Assembly (NCBI GenBank): GCA_012965045.1
Contig: DTSZ01000001.1
Span: forward strand, 503,763-567,762
Source: Candidatus Saccharimonadota bacterium
GTDB lineage: Bacteria > Patescibacteriota > Saccharimonadia > Saccharimonadales > DTSZ01
Direction of reading: 5' to 3'
DNA length: 64,000 bases
In this document: positions 1 through 62,829 of the stretch, piece after piece
Layout: each line of letters begins with the position of its first letter
Numbering within the stretch: the first letter of the stretch is position 1
Program-made: the position numbers and the translations under genes
Notes under the pieces: generated by a model
Seen by the model: only the letters and a program-made list of their open reading frames with translations
Databases searched by the model: none
What the model was told of the DNA's origin: nothing

Positions 1-3000
1 CCCGATCCAACTGTATCGAATTCAATGCCTCCTATATTACTGGCTCCTCCCGTTTTATTACCATCTATCTTAAGATCACGAACAGTAATATCACTGTTAC
101 CGCTAACTTGGTCGGAGTTTTCGATTATATTAAATCCGCTTGCGCTATTTCCGACTGTGATCACACTTCCAGTGCCTACTCCTGAAAGAGTAGTGTTGGA
201 AGGTACCGCGATTTGAGCATCAACGTCATAGGTACCAGCAAGTAGAAGAACCTTACCGCCACTTGCTGCAGTTAAGGCCGAATTAATTTCGTCTTCGTCA
301 CTGGTTCCGTCAGCTACGTAGTCAGCTGCATCTTTTTCGGCTTGGGTAGAGTCATTAGCGGCAACTATGGTGTATTCACCACTGTCTGCTTTCCATTTAC
401 CGTTAGCGTAAGTTAGTAGTTTGTCTGTTGTAGTGTCGAAGTAAACCATACCTTCGGTTGGGCTGGCTGGGCGAGATGCGGTGTTACCGCCGGTAATGGT
501 AAGACTATTGCCGGCACCAAGCACAACGTCGCCGTTGAAAGTACTTGTTCCACCGTCAGCTACTGTTAGCACTGCACTACCACCGTCTTGGACAATGAAT
601 GAACCTGTTCCAGTAATGTCTACAGTAAAGTTAGTTGCTTCACTAACAGTAAGGTCAATGTCTCCACCAGCATCGTCAGCCACAATGGTGTTGCCGCCGT
701 CGTAAGCTACTTGCAGAGTAACAGTAGAGGCAGTTAGGAAGGTAGAGTTACAACTTGCCAGTTGACCAGAGCTGTTTCGACACACCACTGCGTCGTTGTC
801 GGCTGCGGCTGCAGTGTAGCTTACTGTTCCGTTAACAGTAAGTGCACTGTTGGCTAGTTGTAATAGATCAGTATCGGCAGCGATTCCAATGTCGCCACCT
901 TCTACTTCTAGGTTGCCACTGAGTGCGGTAATTGCAGCAGTAATGTCTATTGTGCCGTTAGTGCTATTACTAATGACTTCGTCGTTTTCGAGAGTGATGT
1001 CTCCACCTTGAACGTCAAGTGCACCGGTGATGTCTACGTTCGCACCGAGGGTAATGTCGCCAGCTGGTTGGATTAGGTAGTCGCCGGTGGTTTGGTCTTG
1101 TATTTGACCGCCATAAATGGTGCCGGTGCCGCTATCGTTGATAGTCCAATCGTCGTCACCGTCACTATCCGAAACGTAGTTATCGGCAATGTAGTTGTTG
1201 TCTGAGCTAGCATTAAAAATATTAATGCCATAACAGTCAGTGTTACATTCAGTGTCTAATACACGGTTGCTAGTAATCTGGTTATTATCAGAGTTATTAA
1301 TATAGATTGCATTAAATCTGCTAGCTCCGCCGCTTACATTCGAAAGGTTGCCGGTGATGACGTTTGAATCACTGGTGTCGAGACGTATTGCTTCGTTTGT
1401 AGAGCTGTAAATACTGTTTCCAGATATAACGTTGAAGTCGTTGCTGCCAGCAAGATACATTCCACGGTTGCTACCATCTACGGTGTTGCTGCTGACGCTG
1501 TTGTTTTCTGAAGATGAGAAGTAGAGTCCATTACCCGTTACGTTTAACACCGTGTTGCCTGTGATAGTGTTGCTATCTGCATTAGCAAAATGCATTCCGT
1601 CTGTACTGTCAGCTACAGTGTTACCAGTAATAGTGTTGTTGTCAGAAGCAACGTAGAAACCTCGACTGCCACCTTCGGCATAGTTATCGGTAAAGGTGTT
1701 GCTTGTACTTGTAACAGTAACCGTATATTGGTACGTAGTGTTGTTTATAGAGGCGTTGTTCGTTATAGAGTTACTCACACTAGTGCTCGTTAGCGTAATA
1801 CCTTCAGCGTTATTAATAACTGTACTGCCCGACACACGACTGTTGTCGCTCGCAACAAGTTGGATACCGTTGTTCCTAAAGTCTTGTACGTGCACGTTAC
1901 TAATATTTGCCCCCAAACGACTACTAGCAAGATCTCCTACTCCGTTAAAATAAATACCACGTTGCGTCCCCACCGTATTCAAATCATCACGGCCATCGAG
2001 CTTTAGGTCACGGATAGTTACGCCAGTACCAGTTGTAGTGTCGCTGTTTTCAATTAGGTTGTCGGTGGCGTCTATGTCAGCTAGCTCAATGACTGTTCCA
2101 TTACCAACACCAGCCAAAGTAGTGTTGTTAGGTATAAGGATGGTTCCATCAGCTACGTAGGTACCAGCAAGTAGAAGAACCTTACCGCCACTTGCTGCAG
2201 TTAAGGCCGAATTAATTTCGTCTTCGTCACTGGTTCCGTCAGCTACGTAGTCAGCTGCATCTTTTTCGGCTTGGGTAGAGTCATTAGCGGCAACTATGGT
2301 GTATTCACCACTGTCTGCTTTCCATTTACCGTTAGCGTAAGTTAGTAGTTTGTCTGTTGTAGTGTCGAAGTAAACCATACCTTCGGTTGGGCTGGCTGGG
2401 CGAGATGCGGTGTTACCGCCGGTAATGGTAAGACTATTGCCGGCACCAAGCACAACGTCGCCGTTGAAAGTACTTGTTCCACCGTCAGCTACTGTTAGCA
2501 CTGCACTACCACCGTCTTGGACAATGAATGAACCTGTTCCAGTAATGTCTACAGTAAAGTTAGTTGCTTCACTAACAGTAAGGTCAATGTCTCCACCAGC
2601 ATCGTCAGCCACAATGGTGTTGCCGCCGTCGTAAGCACCCTGAAGGTTAAAGTTGGCAGTGCTTAGGAATGTAGAACTACAAGCCGCGAGTTGGTTAGAT
2701 GTGTTTCTACAGACCACGGAGTCGTTGTCGGCAGCGGCAAGAGTTGCTACCTGAACTGTGTCATTAAGGATAATTTCACCAGTACCATTAGCGACCACCG
2801 TTAGGTTCTCGTCGGTACCTGTAGTTATGTCCGTAACAACACCACTAATAGTCAATGAACCAGTGTCGAGTGTAAGGCTGTCTGCAGTCAGAGCATCTTG
2901 TATATCCACGTTGCCACCTGAGCTGTTGATAGTAAGATCTCCGTCGCTTGCGGTTGTAAGATCTGTGTAGTTGGCGGCTGAACCATCTGCGTCATTGTAA

Positions 3001-4616
3001 GTAAGACGCAAGTTACTGCCTGTAGCTGAATTTATTTCGACTTGGCTATCTGGGCCGTTAGTACCTATACCGACGCTTCCGCCGCCATCAATGACCAGCA
3101 CATCTGTAGTATCGGTTTGGTTGTAGACTCTAAATTTGCCGTTATTGTTTCCAAGCCTATACTCATCTCCTGCGGTGTCGGTAAATCTAATTTCTGGAAC
3201 GGTGCCAGAAAGATGAAGTAATTGCTGTGGGCTGGACGTCCCAATCCCTATCCTCTCATTAGTTGTATCTACATTTAAGATCGGTGTGCCGCCATCGGCA
3301 TCCAAGAACTGATAAGCCGTAGTTGAATCCGTTCCGTTCTGGAGCGTAAAGTTGTTGCCAGCGAAAGTCTTCGCCCCAGCAAAGGTTTGGGTGCCGGTTG
3401 AGACGAGTCCGGGGTAGGTTGCATCAGCCGTTTGCAGGAATAGTTCGTTCGCAGAAATAACGCCACCATTGGCATTCTTAGAAGCGCCATTTAAGGTACC
3501 AACTGCAGTAGCACCACTGCCCGCACCGTCAATGTTTGTGCCAACCCACACAGTTCCGTTCCAAATAAATGCTTGGCTGCGTTGACTGTTTATTGTTACG
3601 CCGTACATAGCAAAGCTTTCGGTACCGACGTTGTTAACATACACAACGCGACCACCTGTTGTGACGGTTGGATCTGGCAATGTTAGCGTTTGACCAGATG
3701 TAGTCTGATTAACATTTAGCGTACTGGCAATATCTACTGAATTTGCAGCCGTTTCTACATCGCCGCCACCGCTTACGTCGCTAATTGTGATCGCCGTAAA
3801 TAAGCTACTGCCAGCGTTGGTGAATTGGTTGCCTGCAGTTACCGACAGGTCGCCGTCAAACGTCGAATTACCAGTAACCGTTAGTACGCCCGCATTCGTA
3901 AGAGTAAGAATATCGCTACCGCCATTTTGCAGCTGAAGTAAATTACCAGTGTTAGTTTTGTTAATAAATATGCTGCTATTCGTAGTGTTGTCAGTTTGTG
4001 CGCTGCCTTGAGCCAGTTGAACGAAGTCTGTTGAATCTAAGTTGTCTAGCGTATCAGCGTTATCAGCTTGGAAGGCATACGGGCTAGCAGAGAATCTCAT
4101 GAATGGATCCATTTCGCCGTCGTAGCTGGCAGCACCACCACTGCCACCAATGTCGACAGTCAGCCACAAAGTATCTTCGGTGAAGTCGACGCCAGACAGT
4201 GACGTTAGTGATCCAAGTTGTACCGTAAAGTAACCATTTTCTACCCGAACAAGATTTCCGGTAGAGTGAGCCTCTGTCCATTCCAGTGTTTCATCGCCGC
4301 CGCCAAGATTACCGTCGCCGCCAGAATAGATTCTAAATCGAATGTGATAGTCGCCATCAGGAACAATTCCCTGCGCAGAGTTGCGTAAGCGACCCTGGAA
4401 GGTGAATTGTTCGTTAATGGCAGTTGCGGAGTGAGGGGCTAGTGCTACGAGAGCAGTCATTACAGAAAGAGCAACCAAAAGCACCCCTACACTGCCCAGG
4501 TAGCGGGCGCTTGCTACTGAGCAGTGTATGAATGCCTTAGTTTCTGAAAACGCAAAAACACTACCTTTAACCAAGGTAGTTAATGCATGTGCTAGTGATG
4601 AGAAAATTGTTCTCAT
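1..4616 (-). CDS. Giant secreted/surface protein, N-terminal >=1538 aa (3' end beyond left edge). Tail-fibre-like N-domain plus repeated Pectate_lyase_3/PbH1-type parallel beta-helix modules
   Basis: Absent from the supplied track because it has no stop inside the window. My hand translation of the reverse complement from ATG 4616 (GAGG just upstream) stays open to position 3. It starts MRTIFSSLAHALTT...VGVLLVALSVMTALVALAPHSATA (hydrophobic anchor/signal), then FTFQGRLRNSAQGIVPDGDYHIRFRIYSGG. ADGTSDEDEINSALTAASGGKVLLLAGTY follows, then beta-helix turns NNTITGNTVADS, SNTITGNTVLNV, NNSVSSNTVDGS, FNVISGNSIYSS, SNVITGNLSNV, NNQITSNRVLD. No track ORF occupies this minus frame. Confidence 0.8.
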   Translation of the reverse strand, partial: MRTIFSSLAHALTTLVKGSVFAFSETKAFIHCSVASARYLGSVGVLLVALSVMTALVALAPHSATAINEQFTFQGRLRNSAQGIVPDGDYHIRFRIYSGGDGNLGGGDETLEWTEAHSTGNLVRVENGYFTVQLGSLTSLSGVDFTEDTLWLTVDIGGSGGAASYDGEMDPFMRFSASPYAFQADNADTLDNLDSTDFVQLAQGSAQTDNTTNSSIFINKTNTGNLLQLQNGGSDILTLTNAGVLTVTGNSTFDGDLSVTAGNQFTNAGSSLFTAITISDVSGGGDVETAANSVDIASTLNVNQTTSGQTLTLPDPTVTTGGRVVYVNNVGTESFAMYGVTINSQRSQAFIWNGTVWVGTNIDGAGSGATAVGTLNGASKNANGGVISANELFLQTADATYPGLVSTGTQTFAGAKTFAGNNFTLQNGTDSTTAYQFLDADGGTPILNVDTTNERIGIGTSSPQQLLHLSGTVPEIRFTDTAGDEYRLGNNNGKFRVYNQTDTTDVLVIDGGGSVGIGTNGPDSQVEINSATGSNLRLTYNDADGSAANYTDLTTASDGDLTINSSGGNVDIQDALTADSLTLDTGSLTISGVVTDITTGTDENLTVVANGTGEIILNDTVQVATLAAADNDSVVCRNTSNQLAACSSTFLSTANFNLQGAYDGGNTIVADDAGGDIDLTVSEATNFTVDITGTGSFIVQDGGSAVLTVADGGTSTFNGDVVLGAGNSLTITGGNTASRPASPTEGMVYFDTTTDKLLTYANGKWKADSGEYTIVAANDSTQAEKDAADYVADGTSDEDEINSALTAASGGKVLLLAGTYVADGTILIPNNTTLAGVGNGTVIELADIDATDNLIENSDTTTGTGVTIRDLKLDGRDDLNTVGTQRGIYFNGVGDLASSRLGANISNVHVQDFRNNGIQLVASDNSRVSGSTVINNAEGITLTSTSVSNSITNNASINNTTYQYTVTVTSTSNTFTDNYAEGGSRGFYVASDNNTITGNTVADSTDGMHFANADSNTITGNTVLNVTGNGLYFSSSENNSVSSNTVDGSNRGMYLAGSNDFNVISGNSIYSSTNEAIRLDTSDSNVITGNLSNVSGGASRFNAIYINNSDNNQITSNRVLDTECNTDCYGINIFNASSDNNYIADNYVSDSDGDDDWTINDSGTGTIYGGQIQDQTTGDYLIQPAGDITLGANVDITGALDVQGGDITLENDEVISNSTNGTIDITAAITALSGNLEVEGGDIGIAADTDLLQLANSALTVNGTVSYTAAAADNDAVVCRNSSGQLASCNSTFLTASTVTLQVAYDGGNTIVADDAGGDIDLTVSEATNFTVDITGTGSFIVQDGGSAVLTVADGGTSTFNGDVVLGAGNSLTITGGNTASRPASPTEGMVYFDTTTDKLLTYANGKWKADSGEYTIVAANDSTQAEKDAADYVADGTSDEDEINSALTAASGGKVLLLAGTYDVDAQIAVPSNTTLSGVGTGSVITVGNSASGFNIIENSDQVSGNSDITVRDLKIDGNKTGGASNIGGIEFDTVGS
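229..707 (-). repeat. Intragenic repeat copy 1 (479 bp, identical to 2158-2636)
   Basis: Line-by-line comparison at an offset of 1929 bp. The shadow ORFs 481..705 and 2410..2634 give identical peptides. Flanks on both sides are homologous but clearly diverged. Confidence 0.85.
2158..2636 (-). repeat. Intragenic repeat copy 2 (479 bp, identical to 229-707)
   Basis: Same evidence as copy 1. Encodes ...LQxAYDGGNTIVADDAGGDIDLTVSEATNFTVDITGTGSFIVQDGG...RPASPTEGMVYFDTTTDKLLTYANGKWKADSGEYTIVAANDSTQAEKDAADYVADGTSDEDEINSALTAASGGKVLLLAGTY. Confidence 0.85.
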
Positions 4617-4675
4617 TAACCTCTTTTTACAAAAGACAGGTCAAATGAGAGCGCCCAAGGTATTATCTAAAATCT

Positions 4676-40740: not shown

Positions 40741-40889
40741 AATTGGTGACCCTAACCTGCCTGCCGGTAGGAAGGGAAAATATCTAACGATATAATCTGC
40801 GTAACTTTTCGAAGCTAGGAGGTAGCTTCTGTGAGAGCACTTGATTATCTGAACTCTAGAGTTCGTGCTCTCTTCGAGAGCTAACCACG
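40741..40889. other. Structured non-coding region between two terminators (candidate small RNA, strand unresolved)
   Basis: Contains TGGTGACCC (a copy of the tRNA-Glu 3' end), hairpin CCTGCCTGCCGGTAGGAAGG, hairpin GAAGCTA-GGAGG-TAGCTTC, palindrome GAACTCTAGAGTTC, and mutually exclusive pairings GAGAGCAC/GTGCTCTC versus GCTCTC/GAGAGC. Confidence 0.4.
40756..40775 (+). repeat. Hairpin motif copy A (CCTGCCTGCCGGTAGGAAGG+GAAA)
   Basis: 22 of 24 nt identical to 61171-61194 in the same orientation. Confidence 0.7.
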
Positions 40890-40920: not shown

Positions 40921-40995
40921 TGGTGACCCCAAGGAGGATCGAACTCCTATTTTCAGGATGAAAACCTGATGTCCTAACCATTAGACGATGGGGCC
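40921..40995 (-). tRNA. tRNA-Glu (anticodon UUC), CCA encoded
   Basis: Reverse complement folds as GGCCCCA-TC-GTCT-AATGGTTA-GGAC-A-TCAGG-TTTTCAT-CCTGA-AAAT-AGGAG-TTCGATC-CTCCT-TGGGGTC-ACCA. Hand-folded cloverleaf. Confidence 0.85.
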
Positions 40996-57905: not shown

Positions 57906-57982
57906 GCACCCGTAGCTCAGCTGGATAGAGCGCCTGTCTTCGGAACAGGAGGTCATAGGTTCGAATCCTATCGGGTGTACCA
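57906..57982 (+). tRNA. tRNA-Arg (anticodon UCG), CCA encoded
   Basis: GCACCCG-TA-GCTC-AGCTGGATA-GAGC-G-CCTGT-CTTCGGA-ACAGG-AGGTC-ATAGG-TTCGAAT-CCTAT-CGGGTGT-ACCA. Hand-folded, 77 nt. Confidence 0.85.
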
Positions 57983-57990
57983 TATTGCAA

Positions 57991-58016
57991 GTCGTCAATC
58001 GAGACGACTTTTTTTA
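57991..58016 (+). terminator. Terminator of tRNA-Arg
   Basis: GTCGTC-AATCGA-GACGAC followed by TTTTTTT. Confidence 0.7.
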
Positions 58017-58126
58017 ATGGTTATACCTAGATCACACTTAACCCGTCATGGGAGTAAACTAAATAAACTGCAGTTTCAATTTTTTACTACGTTTTTACCC
58101 CGCTTATAATTCACGCTAACTGTAGT

Positions 58127-60514
58127 ATGATTACTACTACCGTGAAGCGATATCTTAATAAACTGGTTAAACTATTAACCGACACCTACCGTGACCCTCG
58201 ATTTATTATTACGAGTTTATTTGCGCTCGTTGGGTTTTTAATAACTACTGCACAGGTTGTAGAAGCTGATGAACTCGATAATTTTGAGAAGTATATATTT
58301 GAACTGATCAACCAACTGGGCGATGGGTTATATTCATTTTTTTATATAATTACTCAGTTTGGCTCATTATTATCACTAGTGGTCTGGGCGGCTGCTATAG
58401 CTTTTTATTTTAGAAAACGAGCAGCGCTAGCCGCTGTTGTATCAGGTTTTTTAGGTTGGCTAATCGCAAAGCCTTTAAAAGCGTATATCGGGCGAGCCAG
58501 ACCAGGCGAAATTCTTGACAGCTTGAATATCTTTACAGATGAAAAATTTAGTGGATTGGGATACCCTTCGGGTCACGCCACCTTATCTGCCGCTGTTGCA
58601 ACAGCAGTTTTTTTGTACCTTAAGCCAAAAAATCGCAAGTACTTGCTTATATTTGTAGCGCTAATCGGCATAAGCCGAGTTTATCTCGGTGGCCACTTCC
58701 CTCGTGACATTATAGGTGGCTGGTTCCTTGGTGTTCTCGCAGGCTGTATTGGTTCATTTTTAATCGGCAGCTCTAGAGACGCTGCCTCTAACAAGTACAT
58801 CAAAAATGTATTAAATAAGAATGGTATAAAGGCTGCAGCAATTAAAGAGTTCAGCGGGGATGCTCGTGGGTCAAGACCTATTTTTATTACACTTGAAGAT
58901 AAAACTAAACTGTTTGGCAAAATAGTAACTAGCCAAGAGCAGGCTGCCGACTGGTTGTTTAAAACGTTTCGTTTTTTTAAATACAAGAACTTCAAAGACG
59001 AGGACCCCTACCTTAACCCAAAACGACACACCGAACATGAAGCGTTCGTAGCAGAATGGGCTCGTAAATTTGGCGTCAACACACCTCAAGTTATTAAGAT
59101 CGTTCATGTCAAAGATAGCCAGTGGTTATTAGTACAAGACATGGTAGACGCTGAGCCACTCGACAAGCAAAAAAAAGTAAGTCAAAAAACTTTAGAGCAA
59201 ACCTGGCGACAAATTTTAAAACTTCATGATGCAGATATTGCTCACCGTGATTTACGAGCAAGCAACGTACTTGTCGATAAAGACAAGCAGCCATGGATTA
59301 TAGACTTTGGTTTTGCAGAAGTGGCTGGTGATGAGATGAGGAAAAGAGTTGATATTGCCGAATTCTTAACAACCACCAGTATGCTATTTGGTGTTAAAAA
59401 ATCTCTTGCTGCTGCTCTGGCAGTTTTAGAGAAACAAAAACTGCAAGAAGCTGCTCCGTATGTTCAGCCGGCAGCTCTCAGTGGAGCCACTACTAGTGCT
59501 ATTAAAAACGACAAGCAAACTTTCGAGCAACTACAAACTGCCTTAAAAGACATGCATGATAATCAGGAAGTTTTTGAACATCAAGCCCTATTACGAATAA
59601 CAAAGAAACAAATTATAAACCTGGCCTTGGTCGCAGTGTTATTCTTCATAATTATTCCTCAATTTAATGTATTTAAAGACTCGTTCGCATCGCTATCTGA
59701 TATAAATTTTATTTACATACCAGCGGTCATAGTAGCTTCCATGACAACATATATCTTTGCAGCAGGCACCATAACTACCATTCCCTCTGTACCTGTTAGC
59801 TACCGCAAGGCAGTTATGGCGCAGTTGGCCGGTTCGTATGCAAGTAAGTTAGCGCCTCGTGGGCTTGGTTCGAGTGCGGTTAATTTACAATTTTTGCGCA
59901 AACAAGGCATGTCGCTGTCGCGTGCTACGTCTGTTATGCTAACCGACAAATTTCTTGGCTTCTTGCTGTTTGTTATTCCGTTTGGTTCGGTTGTAGTAAT
60001 TAGCGGTCAATCATCACTTTCACAGCTACTACCGGATATGAAAACGTACTACGTTTATATAGCGCTGGGGATAATTTTGGCCGGCATTACTGTATTGGTC
60101 GCAAAACGAACCTGGCAAGAAAAAATTATTCAATCGCTAAAAAAGAGCTACTTTGAAATAAAGCAACTTGCCTATAGACCGCGATCGTTGCTGCTTGCTG
60201 CTTTATTTTCTCTCGGGGTAACGGTAAGCTACCTCCTCACTTTATATTTGTGTTTCACAGCATTACAAGTCGACATATCGATACTACAAATAATCGTCAC
60301 GTATGCTGCCGCTACCTTCGCGAGTTCGGTCACACCGACGCCAGGTGGCTTAGGTGGTTTCGAAGCTGGATTAATTGCAGCAATGGTAAGTTTTGGCGTG
60401 GAACAGTCTGCGGCTTACTCGGTGGCTATCCTCTATCGTTTAGCTACCTTTTGGCTACCTATTCCTTTAGCTCTAGCCGCTTTTAAGTTTGCTAGGTCTA
60501 AAGACATTATTTGA
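58127..60514 (+). CDS. Three-domain membrane protein: PAP2 lipid phosphatase, protein/lipid kinase-like domain, flippase-like (LPG_synthase_TM/UPF0104) domain
   Basis: 795 aa. PAP2 motifs KPLKAYIGRARP / PSGH / SRVYLGGHFPRD. Kinase motifs HRDLRASNVLV and IDFGFAE. C-terminal multi-TM region with TPTPGGLGGFEAGLIAAM. Confidence 0.75.
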   Translation: MITTTVKRYLNKLVKLLTDTYRDPRFIITSLFALVGFLITTAQVVEADELDNFEKYIFELINQLGDGLYSFFYIITQFGSLLSLVVWAAAIAFYFRKRAALAAVVSGFLGWLIAKPLKAYIGRARPGEILDSLNIFTDEKFSGLGYPSGHATLSAAVATAVFLYLKPKNRKYLLIFVALIGISRVYLGGHFPRDIIGGWFLGVLAGCIGSFLIGSSRDAASNKYIKNVLNKNGIKAAAIKEFSGDARGSRPIFITLEDKTKLFGKIVTSQEQAADWLFKTFRFFKYKNFKDEDPYLNPKRHTEHEAFVAEWARKFGVNTPQVIKIVHVKDSQWLLVQDMVDAEPLDKQKKVSQKTLEQTWRQILKLHDADIAHRDLRASNVLVDKDKQPWIIDFGFAEVAGDEMRKRVDIAEFLTTTSMLFGVKKSLAAALAVLEKQKLQEAAPYVQPAALSGATTSAIKNDKQTFEQLQTALKDMHDNQEVFEHQALLRITKKQIINLALVAVLFFIIIPQFNVFKDSFASLSDINFIYIPAVIVASMTTYIFAAGTITTIPSVPVSYRKAVMAQLAGSYASKLAPRGLGSSAVNLQFLRKQGMSLSRATSVMLTDKFLGFLLFVIPFGSVVVISGQSSLSQLLPDMKTYYVYIALGIILAGITVLVAKRTWQEKIIQSLKKSYFEIKQLAYRPRSLLLAALFSLGVTVSYLLTLYLCFTALQVDISILQIIVTYAAATFASSVTPTPGGLGGFEAGLIAAMVSFGVEQSAAYSVAILYRLATFWLPIPLALAAFKFARSKDII

Positions 60515-61043
60515 CCTTTTTATAGGTTCTCTTGAGATGTTTCATAATTTTAATCTCAATAAAACTAAAAAATTTGTCAATCCCCGTTACTGGTCCAAAT
60601 TTTTCAACTGCTAAAGTTGTCATGCCTGCCTTGTTAGCTCCGTAAATGTCTTGAATGAATCTGTCGCCTACCATAATGAGTTCCGACGGAGTGTACCCTG
60701 TTTCAGCTTCAGATCGCCGGTAATAGGCGGGGAGAGGTTTTCCTTTAAGTCCTTCGGGCTGCATGGCGCCCTGAGCGCCGAGAGCCTTAACTATTACTGA
60801 CACGTCTTTCGACTTCGGCCTGTTCGTGGCAACGAAAAAAGGCAATGGTTGGTTTTTCAAGGCTTCAAACACCCAGTCTTCAACAGTTTCGGTTCCGTAA
60901 TGAACGACAGTGTGGTCAAGGTCTACTAGAAAGGCTTTGATGCCGGTTGACTGTAAATACGTAAAATCTACCTTCGAAATATTCTCTGCAATGTAATCTG
61001 GGAGTAGATTATTGGATCTCTTGCTGCTGGGTTTTTTGTACAT
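60507..61043 (-). CDS. HAD-IIIA family phosphatase (YqeG-like)
   Basis: 178 aa. FLVDLDHTVV (DxDxT) and MVGDRFIQDIYGANKAGM. Confidence 0.7.
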   Translation of the reverse strand: MYKKPSSKRSNNLLPDYIAENISKVDFTYLQSTGIKAFLVDLDHTVVHYGTETVEDWVFEALKNQPLPFFVATNRPKSKDVSVIVKALGAQGAMQPEGLKGKPLPAYYRRSEAETGYTPSELIMVGDRFIQDIYGANKAGMTTLAVEKFGPVTGIDKFFSFIEIKIMKHLKRTYKKVK

Positions 61044-61095
61044 GTTGTGGGTGGTGACCTTTCGTAACGCATATCTCTTGACTGTATAAATAATA

Positions 61096-61355
61096 TCAGC
61101 TGTATAGAGCGCCTGTCTTGAGCAACTGTTAAGGCCATAGGGGCGAAATGACTAAAAATCACTTCGCAAGCCTGCCTGGCGGTAGGCAGGGAAATTTTCT
61201 TCTAAAAGCTGGTTTTCAATAATGAAATTTAGGGTGAGACGAGCCAGTGGCTCGTTGCAAGGAGACTTTCTTCATCAAATTTTGTTTGATAGAAGGAAAT
61301 CGCGGGCTCGCAGGATGTGAGTGCAGAATGTGACCGAATCCTATCGGGTGTACCA
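61096..61355 (+). pseudogene. Split, 5'-truncated tRNA-Arg-derived sequence carrying a ~190-215 nt structured insert
   Basis: 61096-61119 reads TCAGCTGtATAGAGCGCCTGTCTT (23 of 24 nt match tRNA-Arg positions 12-35). A degenerate anticodon/variable region runs to ATAGG (61137-61141). 61335-61355 reads CGAATCCTATCGGGTGTACCA, identical to 57962-57982. The 5' acceptor strand GCACCCG is absent. Confidence 0.6.
61171..61190 (+). repeat. Hairpin motif copy B (CCTGCCTGGCGGTAGGCAGG+GAAA)
   Basis: Perfect 6-bp stem CCTGCC/GGCAGG with loop TGGCGGTA. 22 of 24 nt match 40756-40779. Confidence 0.7.
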
Positions 61356-61505
61356 CAAAGTTATCATGAGTGAGACGACTTTTTTAATTTGCGATATGAT
61401 TTGATCAGAAACACAAACCACAACGCAATATATACTGACATTTATCCCAAGTAAAAATATATAATCTTGACTTTTAATCCAAAAAACTAGTGCTATTATA
61501 TAAAC

Positions 61506-62088: not shown

Positions 62089-62742
62089 CTAGCAAGGCTC
62101 GCCGTTGGGGCGAGTGCAGGGTGCCGGAGCAGCGCCGCAACCTCCGAGGGCACAATCGCCCGTCGAACAGCCGCGTGGGTTTGAATGTGGCCCGTACAGT
62201 CCGTATACTTCCTGCGCCGTATCAGTACGCGTTGCTGCACCAACCGTCAGGATCCACATCGAATCAGGGTTAGAACTTCCAGCTTGAATGTGGTAGTAAA
62301 TGTCGAGCGTTGCCTCTGGCGATATCTCGTTACCGAGTATATCGATGCGGCGAGCTCCACTTGCGATCAAGTCGCGCTCCATGTCTTCCGACACGTCAAA
62401 GGTGCCTGAAGCTGGACCGTCCTCGTAGGTCAGCATCCAGACCTGGCAACCGGTAGCCTGGTAGTTGGTCAAGCTCGCATAGTCTGGCCCGGAGTTGTCC
62501 TGGCCTCCATGGAGGTTCACGACAACGTGCGACGGCACGTAGGACTCGATGCTCGGATCAGATCCGAAGCCAACGAGCTTGCCGTCGTCATCGTCCCTGC
62601 AAAGCAAGCTCTGGTCGAACTCGCAGTAGTAGTAATCGCCGTCGATGGCGTTGGCCGCCCCAGCGTTACCCCAAAGGGCAAGGAACACCAGAGACAACAC
62701 AACCAAGATCGGAATGAAGTAGTTCCTGTAAACGTTCAACAT
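62089..62742 (-). CDS. Secreted Cys-rich hypothetical protein encoded by a high-GC block
   Basis: The track ORF starts at 62829. ATG 62742 has GGAGGT 4 nt upstream and gives MLNVYRNYFIPILVVLSLVFLALWGNAGAANA (signal peptide). C-terminus GCSTGDCALGGCGAAPAPCTRPNGEPC. Confidence 0.7.
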   Translation of the reverse strand: MLNVYRNYFIPILVVLSLVFLALWGNAGAANAIDGDYYYCEFDQSLLCRDDDDGKLVGFGSDPSIESYVPSHVVVNLHGGQDNSGPDYASLTNYQATGCQVWMLTYEDGPASGTFDVSEDMERDLIASGARRIDILGNEISPEATLDIYYHIQAGSSNPDSMWILTVGAATRTDTAQEVYGLYGPHSNPRGCSTGDCALGGCGAAPAPCTRPNGEPC

Positions 62743-62800
62743 GTTACCTCCTAAAGGTAAAGTGAATGAGAATTTCCCATTCAATAAACATGCTGACATT

Positions 62801-62829
62801 AAATTAACACGATTATGCTTATTTGTCAA
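62801..62829 (-). promoter_or_regulatory. Candidate promoter of the high-GC gene
   Basis: On the minus strand: TTGACA (62829-62824), a 17-nt spacer, then TAATTT (62806-62801). Confidence 0.35.

What the first reader, a model, noticed from the sequence alone, without database searches (positions are those of the whole stretch)
57906..61390. 21-nt direct repeat of the tRNA-Arg 3' end plus a terminator fragment brackets a 3.4-kb lipid-gene segment
CGAATCCTATCGGGTGTACCA occurs at 57962-57982, the 3' end of the intact tRNA-Arg, and again at 61335-61355. The tRNA terminator tail GAGACGAC-T(6-7)-AAT also recurs, at 58001-58018 and ~61372-61388. Duplication of a tRNA 3' end at the far border is the classic footprint of site-specific integration into a tRNA gene. 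The enclosed cargo is a PAP2-kinase-flippase fusion gene and a YqeG-like HAD phosphatase gene. I saw no integrase or recombinase in the segment, so it would be a decayed or non-autonomous island. The alternative is a segmental duplication of the tRNA locus.
Basis: partly seen in the sequence, partly recalled or inferred. Interest (0 to 1): 0.6.

Follow-up and report, generated by a model that had tools for sequence, protein, structure and literature searches.

The report
Dead tRNA-Arg copy carrying nested inserts
The repeat is real, but it is the tail of a second, dead copy of the tRNA-Arg gene whose T loop is split by a small structured insert, so the two ordinary lipid genes in between are probably not a mobile island.

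Summary
The 21-nt repeat (57962-57982 / 61335-61355) and the shared terminator tail are confirmed. The distal locus is therefore a collinear, disabled copy of the whole tRNA-Arg unit. It lacks positions 1-11, its anticodon region is scrambled, its T loop is split by about 190 nt, and its terminator is degenerate.

The insert is a structured element of about 110 nt. A paralog sits in the T loop of a partial tRNA-Lys copy 4.4 kb downstream (38 pairs, 12 compensatory, no Rfam match). The Arg copy also holds a 21-nt palindrome, CCTGCCTGCCGGTAGGCAGGG. That palindrome is dispersed in Patescibacteria-like metagenome contigs, often in frame inside housekeeping genes, and I found one clean empty versus filled site.

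The enclosed PAP2-kinase-flippase and HAD genes form a conserved Saccharibacteria pair with native composition. No recombinase is present. No close relative exists for an empty-site test.

Verdict: live gene plus dead copy, not a demonstrable island. The insert families are the interesting part, and the structured one rests on only two copies.

The parts
57906..57982 (+). Intact tRNA-Arg(TCG), with CCA encoded. Its last 21 nt (57962-57982) are the proximal repeat.
   Evidence: ARAGORN; Rfam tRNA 70.8 bits.
57989..58018 (+). Intrinsic terminator of the live tRNA-Arg: an 8-bp stem, a T run, then AAT.
   Evidence: Terminator scan; sequence.
58127..60514 (+). PAP2 / kinase / LPG_synthase_TM (flippase-like) fusion gene, 795 aa, with its own promoter-like site at 58083-58110.
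   Evidence: Pfam; homologs across Saccharibacteria and Actinomycetota; lowest codon-usage distance in the window; promoter scan.
60507..61043 (-). HAD-family phosphatase gene, 178 aa, convergent with the fusion gene and overlapping its end.
   Evidence: Pfam; orthologs at 40-43% identity in the same convergent arrangement in L008 and L010.
61096..61119 (+). 5' block of the dead tRNA-Arg copy: D arm, 5' anticodon stem and loop up to U34 (23/24 identical to 57917-57940). Positions 1-11 are missing, G19 is mutated and the D stem is broken.
   Evidence: the repeat finder family D5; blastn; not called by ARAGORN or Rfam. A minus-strand promoter-like site for the HAD gene overlaps it at 61119-61090.
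61120..61141 (+). Scrambled anticodon region (12 nt replace 9), then AGGCC-ATAGG, which is the variable loop (4/5) and the 5' strand of the T stem (5/5) of tRNA-Arg.
   Evidence: Local alignment: 13/16 over AGGCCATAGGGGCGAA vs AGGTCATAGGTTCGAA, collinear. ATAGG pairs with CCTAT at 61340-61344 as the outer helix of model R1.
61142..61334 (+). Insert that splits the T loop: a copy of the structured element R1 (core about 110 nt). It begins GGCGAAA and ends GCAGAATGTGAC. It carries a 13-nt tandem duplication near its 3' end.
   Evidence: Homology and covariation with the element downstream of tRNA-Lys; CM hit 142.6 bits over 61136-61345; no Rfam match at E<=10.
61165..61231 (+). Secondary insertion of about 66 nt in the loop of R1 helix 3. 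It is absent from the Lys copy.
   Evidence: CM alignment shows a 66-nt insert between CACUU and GGGUG; alignment A5.
61171..61191 (+). Copy of the 21-nt palindromic mini-element (CCTGCCTGGCGGTAGGCAGGG, 20/21 to the consensus).
61335..61355 (+). Distal 21-nt repeat: T loop from C56, 3' T stem, 3' acceptor strand, ACCA. Identical to 57962-57982.
61359..61388 (+). Degenerate copy of the tRNA-Arg terminator. The 3' arm and T run are identical; the 5' arm has two uncompensated transitions.
   Evidence: (family D6); not listed by the terminator scan.
40921..40995 (-). tRNA-Glu(TTC), the other tRNA gene in the window. It shows the same kind of downstream 3'-end repeat.
40744..40776 (-). Nine-nt repeat of the tRNA-Glu 3' end (GGGTCACCA, 40744-40752 on the plus strand), 168 nt downstream of the gene. 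It lies 3 nt from a second copy of the mini-element (40756-40776, 20/21).
   Evidence: The spacer is not an R1 member.

Best explanation
The window holds two tRNA-Arg(UCG) units in direct orientation. One is live (57906-58018). The other is dead (61096-61388). The 21-nt repeat is simply the 3' end of the dead unit.

The dead copy lacks its first 11 nt, has a scrambled anticodon region, and has a degenerate terminator. Its T loop is split between the 5' T stem (ATAGG) and C56 by about 190 nt. That insert is a compact multi-helix element, here called R1, with a core of about 110 nt. A second R1 copy sits in the same position in a partial tRNA-Lys copy 4.4 kb further on, between a 5' T-stem-like strand and C56 of the T loop.

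My inference is that R1 is a selfish non-coding element that lands in the conserved T-loop sequence. On this view it persists only in redundant or partial tRNA copies, because a hit in the working gene would be lethal. The Arg copy was later invaded again. About 66 nt entered an R1 hairpin loop, including a 21-nt palindromic mini-element that is mobile in Patescibacteria.

The PAP2-kinase-flippase and HAD genes between the live and dead copies are ordinary chromosomal genes, not cargo.

What is shown: the anatomy, the homology, the covariation, the conserved gene pair, the native composition, and one empty versus filled site for the mini-element.

What is inferred: that R1 is mobile and targets the T loop; how the second tRNA-Arg copy arose (local duplication or an old recombination event); and that the dead copy has no function.
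For: - Three collinear tRNA-derived blocks plus the terminator tail lie at the distal locus. No tRNA is called there.
- R1 shows collinear homology between window 61136-61345 and L003 13580-13722. All 38 consensus pairs form in both copies. Twelve pairs carry compensatory double changes, against 0-1 in slid controls. There are 9 G-U cells.
- The outer helix of R1 is the T stem of the cognate tRNA: AGG/CCT for Arg and GGG/CCC for Lys.
- The 3' flank is the cognate tRNA's own T loop to 3' end in each case.
- The fusion plus HAD pair is conserved in L008 and L010, with no tRNA-Arg or fragments nearby.
- GC is 0.40-0.44, like the flanks. The tetranucleotide rank is 229 of 304, and the fusion gene has the most typical codon usage in the window.
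- No recombinase is present.
- The mini-element occurs on more than 119 metagenome stretches, against about 1 expected. It lies in frame in the L18, L13, TopA, Lon and GatA genes. The L18 filled and empty sites are identical over 444 nt apart from 21 nt.
- Other Patescibacteria-like contigs show dead tRNA copies with small inserts in D or T loops next to live copies (L124, L043).
Against: - The 21-nt block is perfect while neighbouring parts of the dead copy are decayed. This uneven decay fits an integrase identity block, gene conversion, or selection on the block better than simple neutral decay.
- The block starts in the T loop, as att identity blocks of T-loop-targeting integrases do.
- R1 rests on two copies, both from one genome. 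No further member turned up in about 1 Mb of held DNA (about 83 kb of it from this genome) or in viral contigs. Mobility of R1 is therefore not shown.
- Both strands of R1 fold about equally well.
- No close relative exists, so the ancestral state of the 3.4 kb is unknown.
Confidence: 0.55

Rival explanations
1. Decayed or non-autonomous genomic island. A 3.4-kb element carrying the lipid genes integrated into the T loop of tRNA-Arg by a tyrosine integrase. The proximal 21-mer is attL, the distal one is attR, and the integrase has since been lost.
For: There is an exact 21-nt direct repeat starting at C56 and ending at CCA, which is the usual extent of T-loop identity blocks. Phage Ms6 recombines in a tRNA-Ala T loop (PMC1762012 abstract). 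tRNA fragments are common by-products of integration (PMC9897764). All three tRNAs seen in about 83 kb of this genome carry a downstream repeat of their own 3' part.
Against: A collinear 5' part of tRNA-Arg lies just upstream of the distal repeat. No integrase is present in or near the segment. Composition and codon usage are native. The two genes form a conserved chromosomal pair in relatives that lack tRNA-Arg flanks. Sequence downstream of both repeats is also related, which a foreign attP arm need not be.
Confidence: 0.15
2. Integration scars. The short units made of tRNA, then about 170-240 nt, then a repeat from the T loop to the 3' end (Arg distal, Lys, Glu; also L097 and L078) are remnants of small or deleted integrative elements. 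R1 would be conserved att-adjacent arm DNA rather than a T-loop insert. The 3.4 kb would still not be cargo.
For: The same layout recurs at tRNA-Lys, tRNA-Glu, and in unrelated contigs L097 (tRNA-Gln) and L078 (tRNA-Ser). Those two share GAACGGGAAAGG and GACGAC next to the T-loop repeat. L096 has a displaced 3' two-thirds of a tRNA-Asn right after an intact one.
Against: R1 lies between the 5' T-stem strand and the rest of the T loop, so it is inside the core rather than beside it. Compensatory changes point to selection on structure, which arm-type protein sites do not need. No integrase was seen.
Confidence: 0.15
3. R1 is a functional non-coding RNA or cis-regulatory leader that uses a T arm and 3' acceptor strand as a tRNA-like module. 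On this view the distal locus is a working RNA gene, not junk.
For: There is strong covariation with G-U pairs on the tRNA-sense strand. The fold z-scores are -2.6 to -3.7. The 21-mer is perfectly preserved in the Arg copy. The Lys copy lies 64 nt upstream of an ABC-F gene, and the Arg copy lies upstream of the 151-aa gene.
Against: The acceptor part is decayed in the Lys copy. The Arg copy tolerates a 66-nt insert and a 13-nt duplication. There is no 5' acceptor strand, so no minihelix can form. No promoter was called on the plus strand. Only two copies are known, and there are no homologs in relatives' loci.
Confidence: 0.1
4. The distal locus is a tRNA-Arg gene interrupted by a degenerate group I intron, as is common in Patescibacteria tRNA genes.
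For: Group I introns occur in about 40% of Patescibacteria genomes. In tRNA genes they measure 184-894 bp and can hide the gene from standard tools (PMC13011429). The 5' homology block ends at U34 in the anticodon loop, and the gap between the 5' homology block and the 21-mer is 215 nt.
Against: There is no Intron_gpI or any other Rfam match at E<=10. The sequence after the insert resumes at C56, not in the anticodon loop. The exons cannot rebuild a tRNA because there is no 5' acceptor strand and the D stem is broken. The shared core is only about 110 nt and folds as a simple multi-hairpin junction.
Confidence: 0.05

Closest known systems
tRNA gene fragments left at the far border of integrated elements (attR repeats of tyrosine-integrase islands and prophages; T-loop sublocation class)
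   Same: There is a direct repeat of the tRNA 3' part, starting in the T loop and ending at CCA, downstream of an intact gene. tRNA fragments of this origin are documented (PMC9897764; Ms6 T-loop core, PMC1762012; the sublocation classes are from my own knowledge of Williams 2002).
   Different: The distal locus also keeps the 5' half of the tRNA. There is no integrase. The enclosed genes are conserved core-like genes with native composition. Sequence beyond the tRNA end is also duplicated.
Group I introns in Patescibacteria tRNA genes (Nakagawa et al. 2026, PMC13011429) and the T-loop intron of a clostridial tmRNA gene (own knowledge)
   Same: A structured non-coding insert sits inside a tRNA gene of a Patescibacterium and hides it from tRNA finders. 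A T-loop insertion has precedent in tmRNA.
   Different: The insert is in the T loop, not the anticodon loop. The core is about 110 nt against at least 184 nt. There is no Rfam intron match. The host copies are truncated and cannot yield a tRNA even if the insert were removed.
Rickettsia palindromic elements and REP-type extragenic palindromes (comparison for the 21-nt mini-element)
   Same: It is a short palindrome, dispersed in many copies, found in intergenic DNA and in frame inside conserved protein genes, with empty versus filled polymorphism. REP families are reviewed in PMC3733652.
   Different: It is only 21 nt, against 100-150 nt for Rickettsia elements. It is nearly invariant across very different contigs. 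GTAG is internal rather than at the end. There is no target duplication. No linked RAYT gene was found: one RAYT-like ORF lies 4.7 kb from a copy in 1 of 119 loci.
Ordinary tRNA pseudogene from local duplication
   Same: It is a collinear copy with disabling lesions and a decayed terminator, next to a working paralog.
   Different: Decay is very uneven, with perfect 21-nt and 14-nt blocks. The lesion in the T loop is a structured element with a covarying paralog at another tRNA.

Membership tests
tRNA-targeting integrated island (integrase att duplication) | Direct repeat of the tRNA 3' portion at the distal border | tested here: met
   21/21 identical, 0 expected by chance.
tRNA-targeting integrated island (integrase att duplication) | The distal copy holds only the part 3' of the crossover point | tested here: not met
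   The D arm and anticodon-stem block (23/24) and the variable loop plus 5' T stem lie collinearly upstream of the repeat.
tRNA-targeting integrated island (integrase att duplication) | Integrase or other recombinase gene inside the element, next to an att site | tested here: not met
   Only two genes lie inside: the PAP2-kinase-flippase fusion and the HAD phosphatase. No recombinase family appears in gene tables for window 9.5-64 kb plus 9.4 kb beyond.
tRNA-targeting integrated island (integrase att duplication) | Cargo differs in composition or is accessory (absent from relatives) | tested here: not met
   GC matches the flanks. Tetranucleotide rank is 229 of 304 and codon usage is typical. 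The same convergent gene pair is present in L008 and L010.
tRNA-targeting integrated island (integrase att duplication) | An empty site in a closely related genome | not testable with these tools
   The nearest homolog of the fusion protein is 41% identical. The flanking 376-aa gene is an orphan. All assemblies of this organism carry the same arrangement.
tRNA pseudogene / duplicated tRNA unit | Collinear homology to several parts of the parent tRNA and its terminator | tested here: met
   The blocks are 61096-61119, 61132-61141, 61335-61355 and 61372-61385.
tRNA pseudogene / duplicated tRNA unit | Disabling lesions, and not recognised as a tRNA | tested here: met
   Positions 1-11 are absent, the D stem is broken, G19 is changed to T, the anticodon is lost and the T loop is split. 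ARAGORN and Rfam make no call.
Group I intron in a tRNA gene | Match to a group I intron model | tested here: not met
   No Rfam match at E<=10 on either R1 copy. Subgroup-specific models were not available.
Group I intron in a tRNA gene | The flanking exons rebuild a complete tRNA | tested here: not met
   There is no 5' acceptor strand. Homology resumes at C56, not in the anticodon loop.
REP / RPE-like palindromic mini-elements (for the 21-mer) | Short palindrome dispersed in many copies with unrelated flanks | tested here: met
Information content falls to zero outside the unit.
REP / RPE-like palindromic mini-elements (for the 21-mer) | Presence/absence polymorphism at an otherwise identical site | tested here: met
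   The L18 genes of L090 and L139 show 444 aligned nt with 0 mismatches and one 21-nt insertion.
REP / RPE-like palindromic mini-elements (for the 21-mer) | Linked RAYT / Y1 transposase gene, or a terminal GTAG head | tested here: inconclusive
   One RAYT-like ORF was found in 119 loci, 4.7 kb from a copy. GTAG is internal to the palindrome. Whole genomes could not be searched.

The most novel reading that the evidence does not exclude
Two undescribed selfish elements meet in this 300-nt stretch.

(1) R1 is a multi-helix non-coding element of about 110 nt. It inserts between the 5' T stem and C56 of tRNA genes in a marine Saccharibacterium, and it survives only in redundant tRNA copies. It would be either a new kind of T-loop-targeting mobile element or an intron-like RNA.

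(2) A 21-nt palindrome (CCTGCCTGCCGGTAGGCAGGG) moves without target duplication through Patescibacteria genomes. It enters hairpin loops, dead tRNA copies and, in frame, essential genes such as those for ribosomal proteins L18 and L13, topoisomerase I and Lon.
Probability: 0.3. Interest if true: 0.75.

Novelty: new variant of a known kind. Interest (0 to 1): 0.5.

Why it matters
As an island call, this would have been a false positive. tRNA 3'-end repeats are routinely used to delimit islands, and here the repeat belongs to a dead gene copy.

What is actually there bears on how ultra-small Patescibacteria genomes tolerate selfish DNA. Dead or partial tRNA copies appear to act as safe landing sites for small structured inserts.

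If the 21-nt palindrome is confirmed as mobile, it would be among the smallest mobile units known. It is a source of 7-residue insertions in essential proteins across a large and poorly understood bacterial radiation.

R1, if it proves to be mobile or spliced, would add the T loop to the known insertion sites in bacterial tRNA genes.

Tried and rejected
- **Functional intron-containing tRNA:** rejected. There is no 5' acceptor strand and the D stem is broken.
- **Group I intron, tmRNA, T-box, Y-RNA-like:** no Rfam match at E<=10.
- **Phage attP:** the seven viral hits to the 21-mer are complete phage tRNA-Arg(TCT) genes, so the 21-mer is a generic backbone. The intergenic region has no match in phage genomes.
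- **Close relatives:** the genome-contig scan gave only two distant partial hits. Flanking genes are orphans. No empty-site variant exists in other assemblies.
- **General link between the palindrome and tRNA fragments:** not supported. T-loop-like words occur at 0.061 per kb near the motif and 0.057 per kb elsewhere. tRNA genes lie within 600 nt of 7 of about 120 copies, close to chance.
- **Target-site duplication for the palindrome:** a 3-nt flank identity appears in only 19 of 111 copies, and there is none at the empty versus filled site.
- **Homology of the window inserts to L097 and L078 inserts:** limited to the palindrome.
- **The tRNA-Glu spacer as an R1 member:** no.
- **R1 in viral contigs:** none. 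The 111 pattern hits were unrelated.
- **Terminal inverted repeats for R1:** I judged these weak by eye only.
- **My earlier reading of GGGGCGAAA as decayed tRNA T loop:** revised. CGAAA is shared with the Lys copy, whose tRNA has CGAGT, so it belongs to the element.

Full report
**1. Observation**

The window comes from a marine hydrothermal-plume Candidatus Saccharibacteria genome (scaffold of 929,678 bp).

ARAGORN and Rfam find an intact tRNA-Arg(TCG) at 57906-57982. Its last 21 nt, CGAATCCTATCGGGTGTACCA, recur exactly at 61335-61355. They occur nowhere else in the window, even with three mismatches, and none is expected by chance.

The terminator tail GAGACGACTTTTTT is also exact at 58001-58014 and 61372-61385. 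Four independent assemblies give the same sequence.

**2.

Segment 61096-61119 is a 23/24 copy of tRNA-Arg 57917-57940. This covers the D arm, the 5' strand of the anticodon stem, and the loop up to U34 (family D5).

After 12 scrambled nucleotides comes AGGCC-ATAGG (61132-61141). This is the variable loop (4/5) and the 5' strand of the T stem (5/5), in the right order.

The distal locus is therefore a collinear copy of almost the whole tRNA-Arg unit. Its lesions are:
- Positions 1-11 are missing.
- G19 is mutated and the D stem is broken.
- The anticodon is lost.
- The T loop is split by about 190 nt.
- The terminator hairpin has two uncompensated changes.

It is not called a tRNA by any tool. 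The distal 21-mer has its natural partner right beside it, not 3.4 kb away.

**3. The enclosed genes**

The segment holds a 795-aa PAP2 / kinase / LPG_synthase_TM fusion gene and a convergent 178-aa HAD phosphatase gene.

The fusion protein has full-length homologs across Saccharibacteria and Actinomycetota, the nearest at 41% identity. In two of four relatives examined (L008, L010), the fusion gene is followed by the same convergent HAD gene, at 40-43% identity. The contexts are otherwise unrelated, and no tRNA-Arg or tRNA-Arg fragment lies nearby. In L010 a tRNA-Lys gene stands where the dead tRNA-Arg copy stands here.

GC content matches the flanks. The tetranucleotide profile is unremarkable, at rank 229 of 304 windows. 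The fusion gene has the most typical codon usage in the window.

No integrase, resolvase or transposase family appears in the gene tables for window 9.5-64 kb and 9.4 kb beyond.

The empty-site test could not be done. The flanking 376-aa gene is an orphan. Every assembly that carries the 151-aa gene has the same layout. Contig breaks in two assemblies fall on the distal hairpin or repeat region, as expected for repeats.

**4. The insert in the T loop**

Just outside the window lies tRNA-Lys(CTT), at L003 13462-13538, equivalent to window coordinates 65588-65664. It is followed by its terminator and then a 5' T-stem-like strand. About 110 nt later comes CGAGTCCCTCC, its own T loop and 3' T stem, with a decayed acceptor strand.

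Those 110 nt are homologous to the 3' two-thirds of the Arg insert. The shared blocks are TTRAGGGTGA, TGCAAGG and CGGGCYCGCAGRATGTG. They are separated by hairpins whose stems differ in sequence but keep their pairing.

On the two-sequence alignment:
- All 38 consensus pairs form in both copies.
- Twelve pairs carry changes on both sides.
- Slid controls give 0-1 such pairs.
- Nine cells are G-U, so the structure is specific to the tRNA-sense strand.

The outermost helix is the T stem of the cognate tRNA: AGG/CCT for Arg and GGG/CCC for Lys. Both copies begin with G(G or GAAT)CGAAA and end with GCAGAATGTG(AC or GG), directly before C56. The element, here called R1, therefore sits inside the T loop of a dead or partial tRNA copy.

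Relative to the Lys copy, the Arg copy carries an extra 66 nt or so in the loop of one R1 hairpin. It also carries a 13-nt tandem duplication.

R1 has no Rfam match. A covariance model finds only these two copies in about 1 Mb of held DNA, about 83 kb of it from this genome, and none in viral contigs.

With two members from one genome, the structure is well supported. Mobility and function are inferences.

**5. The 21-nt palindrome**

Inside the extra 66 nt lies CCTGCCTGGCGGTAGGCAGGG (61171-61191). A second copy at 40756-40776 lies 3 nt from a 9-nt repeat of the tRNA-Glu 3' end, 168 nt downstream of tRNA-Glu.

Almost all hits matched the consensus CCTGCCTGCCGGTAGGCAGGG, with unrelated flanks.

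About a quarter of the copies lie inside long ORFs, in several frames. The hosts include the genes for ribosomal proteins L18 and L13, topoisomerase I, Lon, GatA, TilS and a pseudouridine synthase. Five of the six reading frames of the unit are open.

The L18 gene of L090 and that of L139 are identical over 444 nt, except that L090 carries the 21 nt between ...GCCATTAA and AAATAAAATC.... There is no target duplication. L18 homologs are labelled Patescibacteria or Paceibacterales. This points to a recently mobile mini-element.

I found no description of it in the paper library, either by sequence or by topic.

Across the metagenome loci it is not specially linked to tRNA fragments. In this tightly packed genome, both copies sit in tRNA-fragment spacers, probably because little other dispensable DNA exists there.

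**6. Wider pattern**

Other Patescibacteria-like contigs show live tRNA genes next to dead or partial copies:
- L097 (tRNA-Gln) and L078 (tRNA-Ser): the tRNA, then about 200 nt, then a repeat from the T loop to the 3' end.
- L043: a tRNA-Ile nested inside a split tRNA-Ile pseudogene.
- L124: a tRNA-Ser pseudogene with hairpin inserts in its D and T loops, then a small GIY-YIG-like ORF, then the live gene.
- L096 and L098: further partial copies.

Group I introns are known to be frequent in Patescibacteria tRNA genes, but in the anticodon loop and at 184 bp or more (PMC13011429). tRNA fragments from integration events are well documented (PMC9897764).

**7. Explanation and rivals**

Best supported: the window holds a live tRNA-Arg unit and a dead one. 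The dead one was disabled by an R1 insert in its T loop and by 5' truncation, and was then invaded again by the palindrome. The genes in between are native.

How the second copy arose remains open. It could be a local duplication or an old recombination event.

Points against a purely neutral pseudogene are the perfect 21-nt and 14-nt blocks beside decayed sequence, and the T-loop start of the block. These fit an integrase identity block, gene conversion from the live copy, or some use of the block.

I give the following weights:
- Live/dead-copy reading: 0.55.
- 3.4-kb island: 0.15.
- Integration-scar reading of the short units: 0.15.
- Functional RNA: 0.10.
- Degenerate group I intron: 0.05.

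**8. Verdict**

The finding is real but mis-framed. As an island it is unsupported and would rank low.

The stretch is nonetheless unusual. It holds a covarying structured element lodged in tRNA T loops and a widespread 21-nt mobile palindrome. I could find neither in Rfam or in the searchable literature.

The overall interest of 0.5 reflects that mix and the thin sampling of R1.

Noticed in passing
window 61171-61191 and 40756-40776; loci L018-L136; L090 versus L139: The 21-nt palindrome CCTGCCTGCCGGTAGGCAGGG is dispersed in Patescibacteria-like metagenome contigs: more than 119 stretches, against about 1 expected. It is often in frame inside housekeeping genes (L18, L13, TopA, Lon, GatA, TilS). 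One empty versus filled site in rplR has 444 identical flanking nt and no target duplication.
   Followed up: partly
L003 13462-13722 (equivalent to window 65588-65848, just outside the window): tRNA-Lys(CTT) is followed by its terminator and a 5' T-stem-like strand. Then comes a structured element of about 110 nt that is paralogous to the insert in the dead tRNA-Arg copy. After it comes a repeat of the tRNA-Lys T loop and 3' T stem. The unit ends 64 nt upstream of an ABC-F gene.
   Followed up: yes
window 40744-40752 (minus-strand sense), downstream of tRNA-Glu 40921-40995: A nine-nt direct repeat of the tRNA-Glu 3' end (GGGTCACCA) lies 168 nt after the gene, separated by a hairpin-rich spacer that is not an R1 member. 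All three tRNAs seen in about 83 kb of this genome therefore carry a downstream repeat of their own 3' part.
   Followed up: partly
L124 280-795: A tRNA-Ser pseudogene has small hairpin inserts in its D loop and T loop (after GGTTCG). It is followed by a small ORF of about 88 aa that looks like a GIY-YIG nuclease (judged by eye), and then by the intact tRNA-Ser.
   Followed up: no
L043 2241-2490: An intact tRNA-Ile(GAT) is nested inside a split tRNA-Ile pseudogene with a different acceptor stem. The 5' fragment is fused directly to the 21-nt palindrome.
   Followed up: no
L097 4575-4900 and L078 1630-1946: Each has an intact tRNA (Gln, Ser), then about 200 nt carrying one or two palindrome copies, then an exact repeat of the tRNA's T loop to 3' end and a similar downstream flank. 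The two inserts share GAACGGGAAAGG at the left and GACGAC next to the T-loop repeat.
   Followed up: partly
L096 4205-4350; L098 5007-5090 and 7100-7190: A tRNA-Asn is followed after 25 nt by the 3' two-thirds of a different tRNA-Asn. A tRNA-Leu has a diverged partial copy 2 kb downstream, with two unknown ORFs in between.
   Followed up: no
window 61090-61119, minus strand: A sigma-70-like site (AAGACA, 18 nt, TG-TATTAT) upstream of the HAD gene overlaps the conserved 5' block of the dead tRNA copy. This could explain why that block is preserved.
   Followed up: no
window 62089-62829, minus strand: This orphan ORF has very atypical composition: local GC is 0.57 against about 0.42, and GC3 is 0.63. 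It has an N-terminal hydrophobic segment, a Cys/Gly/Pro-rich C-terminus, and no Pfam match.
   Followed up: no
window 1-4640, minus strand: A giant open frame of at least 1546 aa runs off the left end of the window. It has the most atypical tetranucleotide profile in the window.
   Followed up: no
window 61234-61261 and 61338-61420: Contigs of two independent assemblies (Logan SRR8626143, JGI Lau) break and overlap exactly in the distal hairpin and repeat region. This fits repeat-induced graph breaks rather than a structural variant.
   Followed up: partly
L061 3033-3942: This is the only RAYT-like (HUH/Y1) ORF found in the 119 palindrome-bearing loci. It lies 4.7 kb from the nearest palindrome copy, so no link is shown.
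   Followed up: partly
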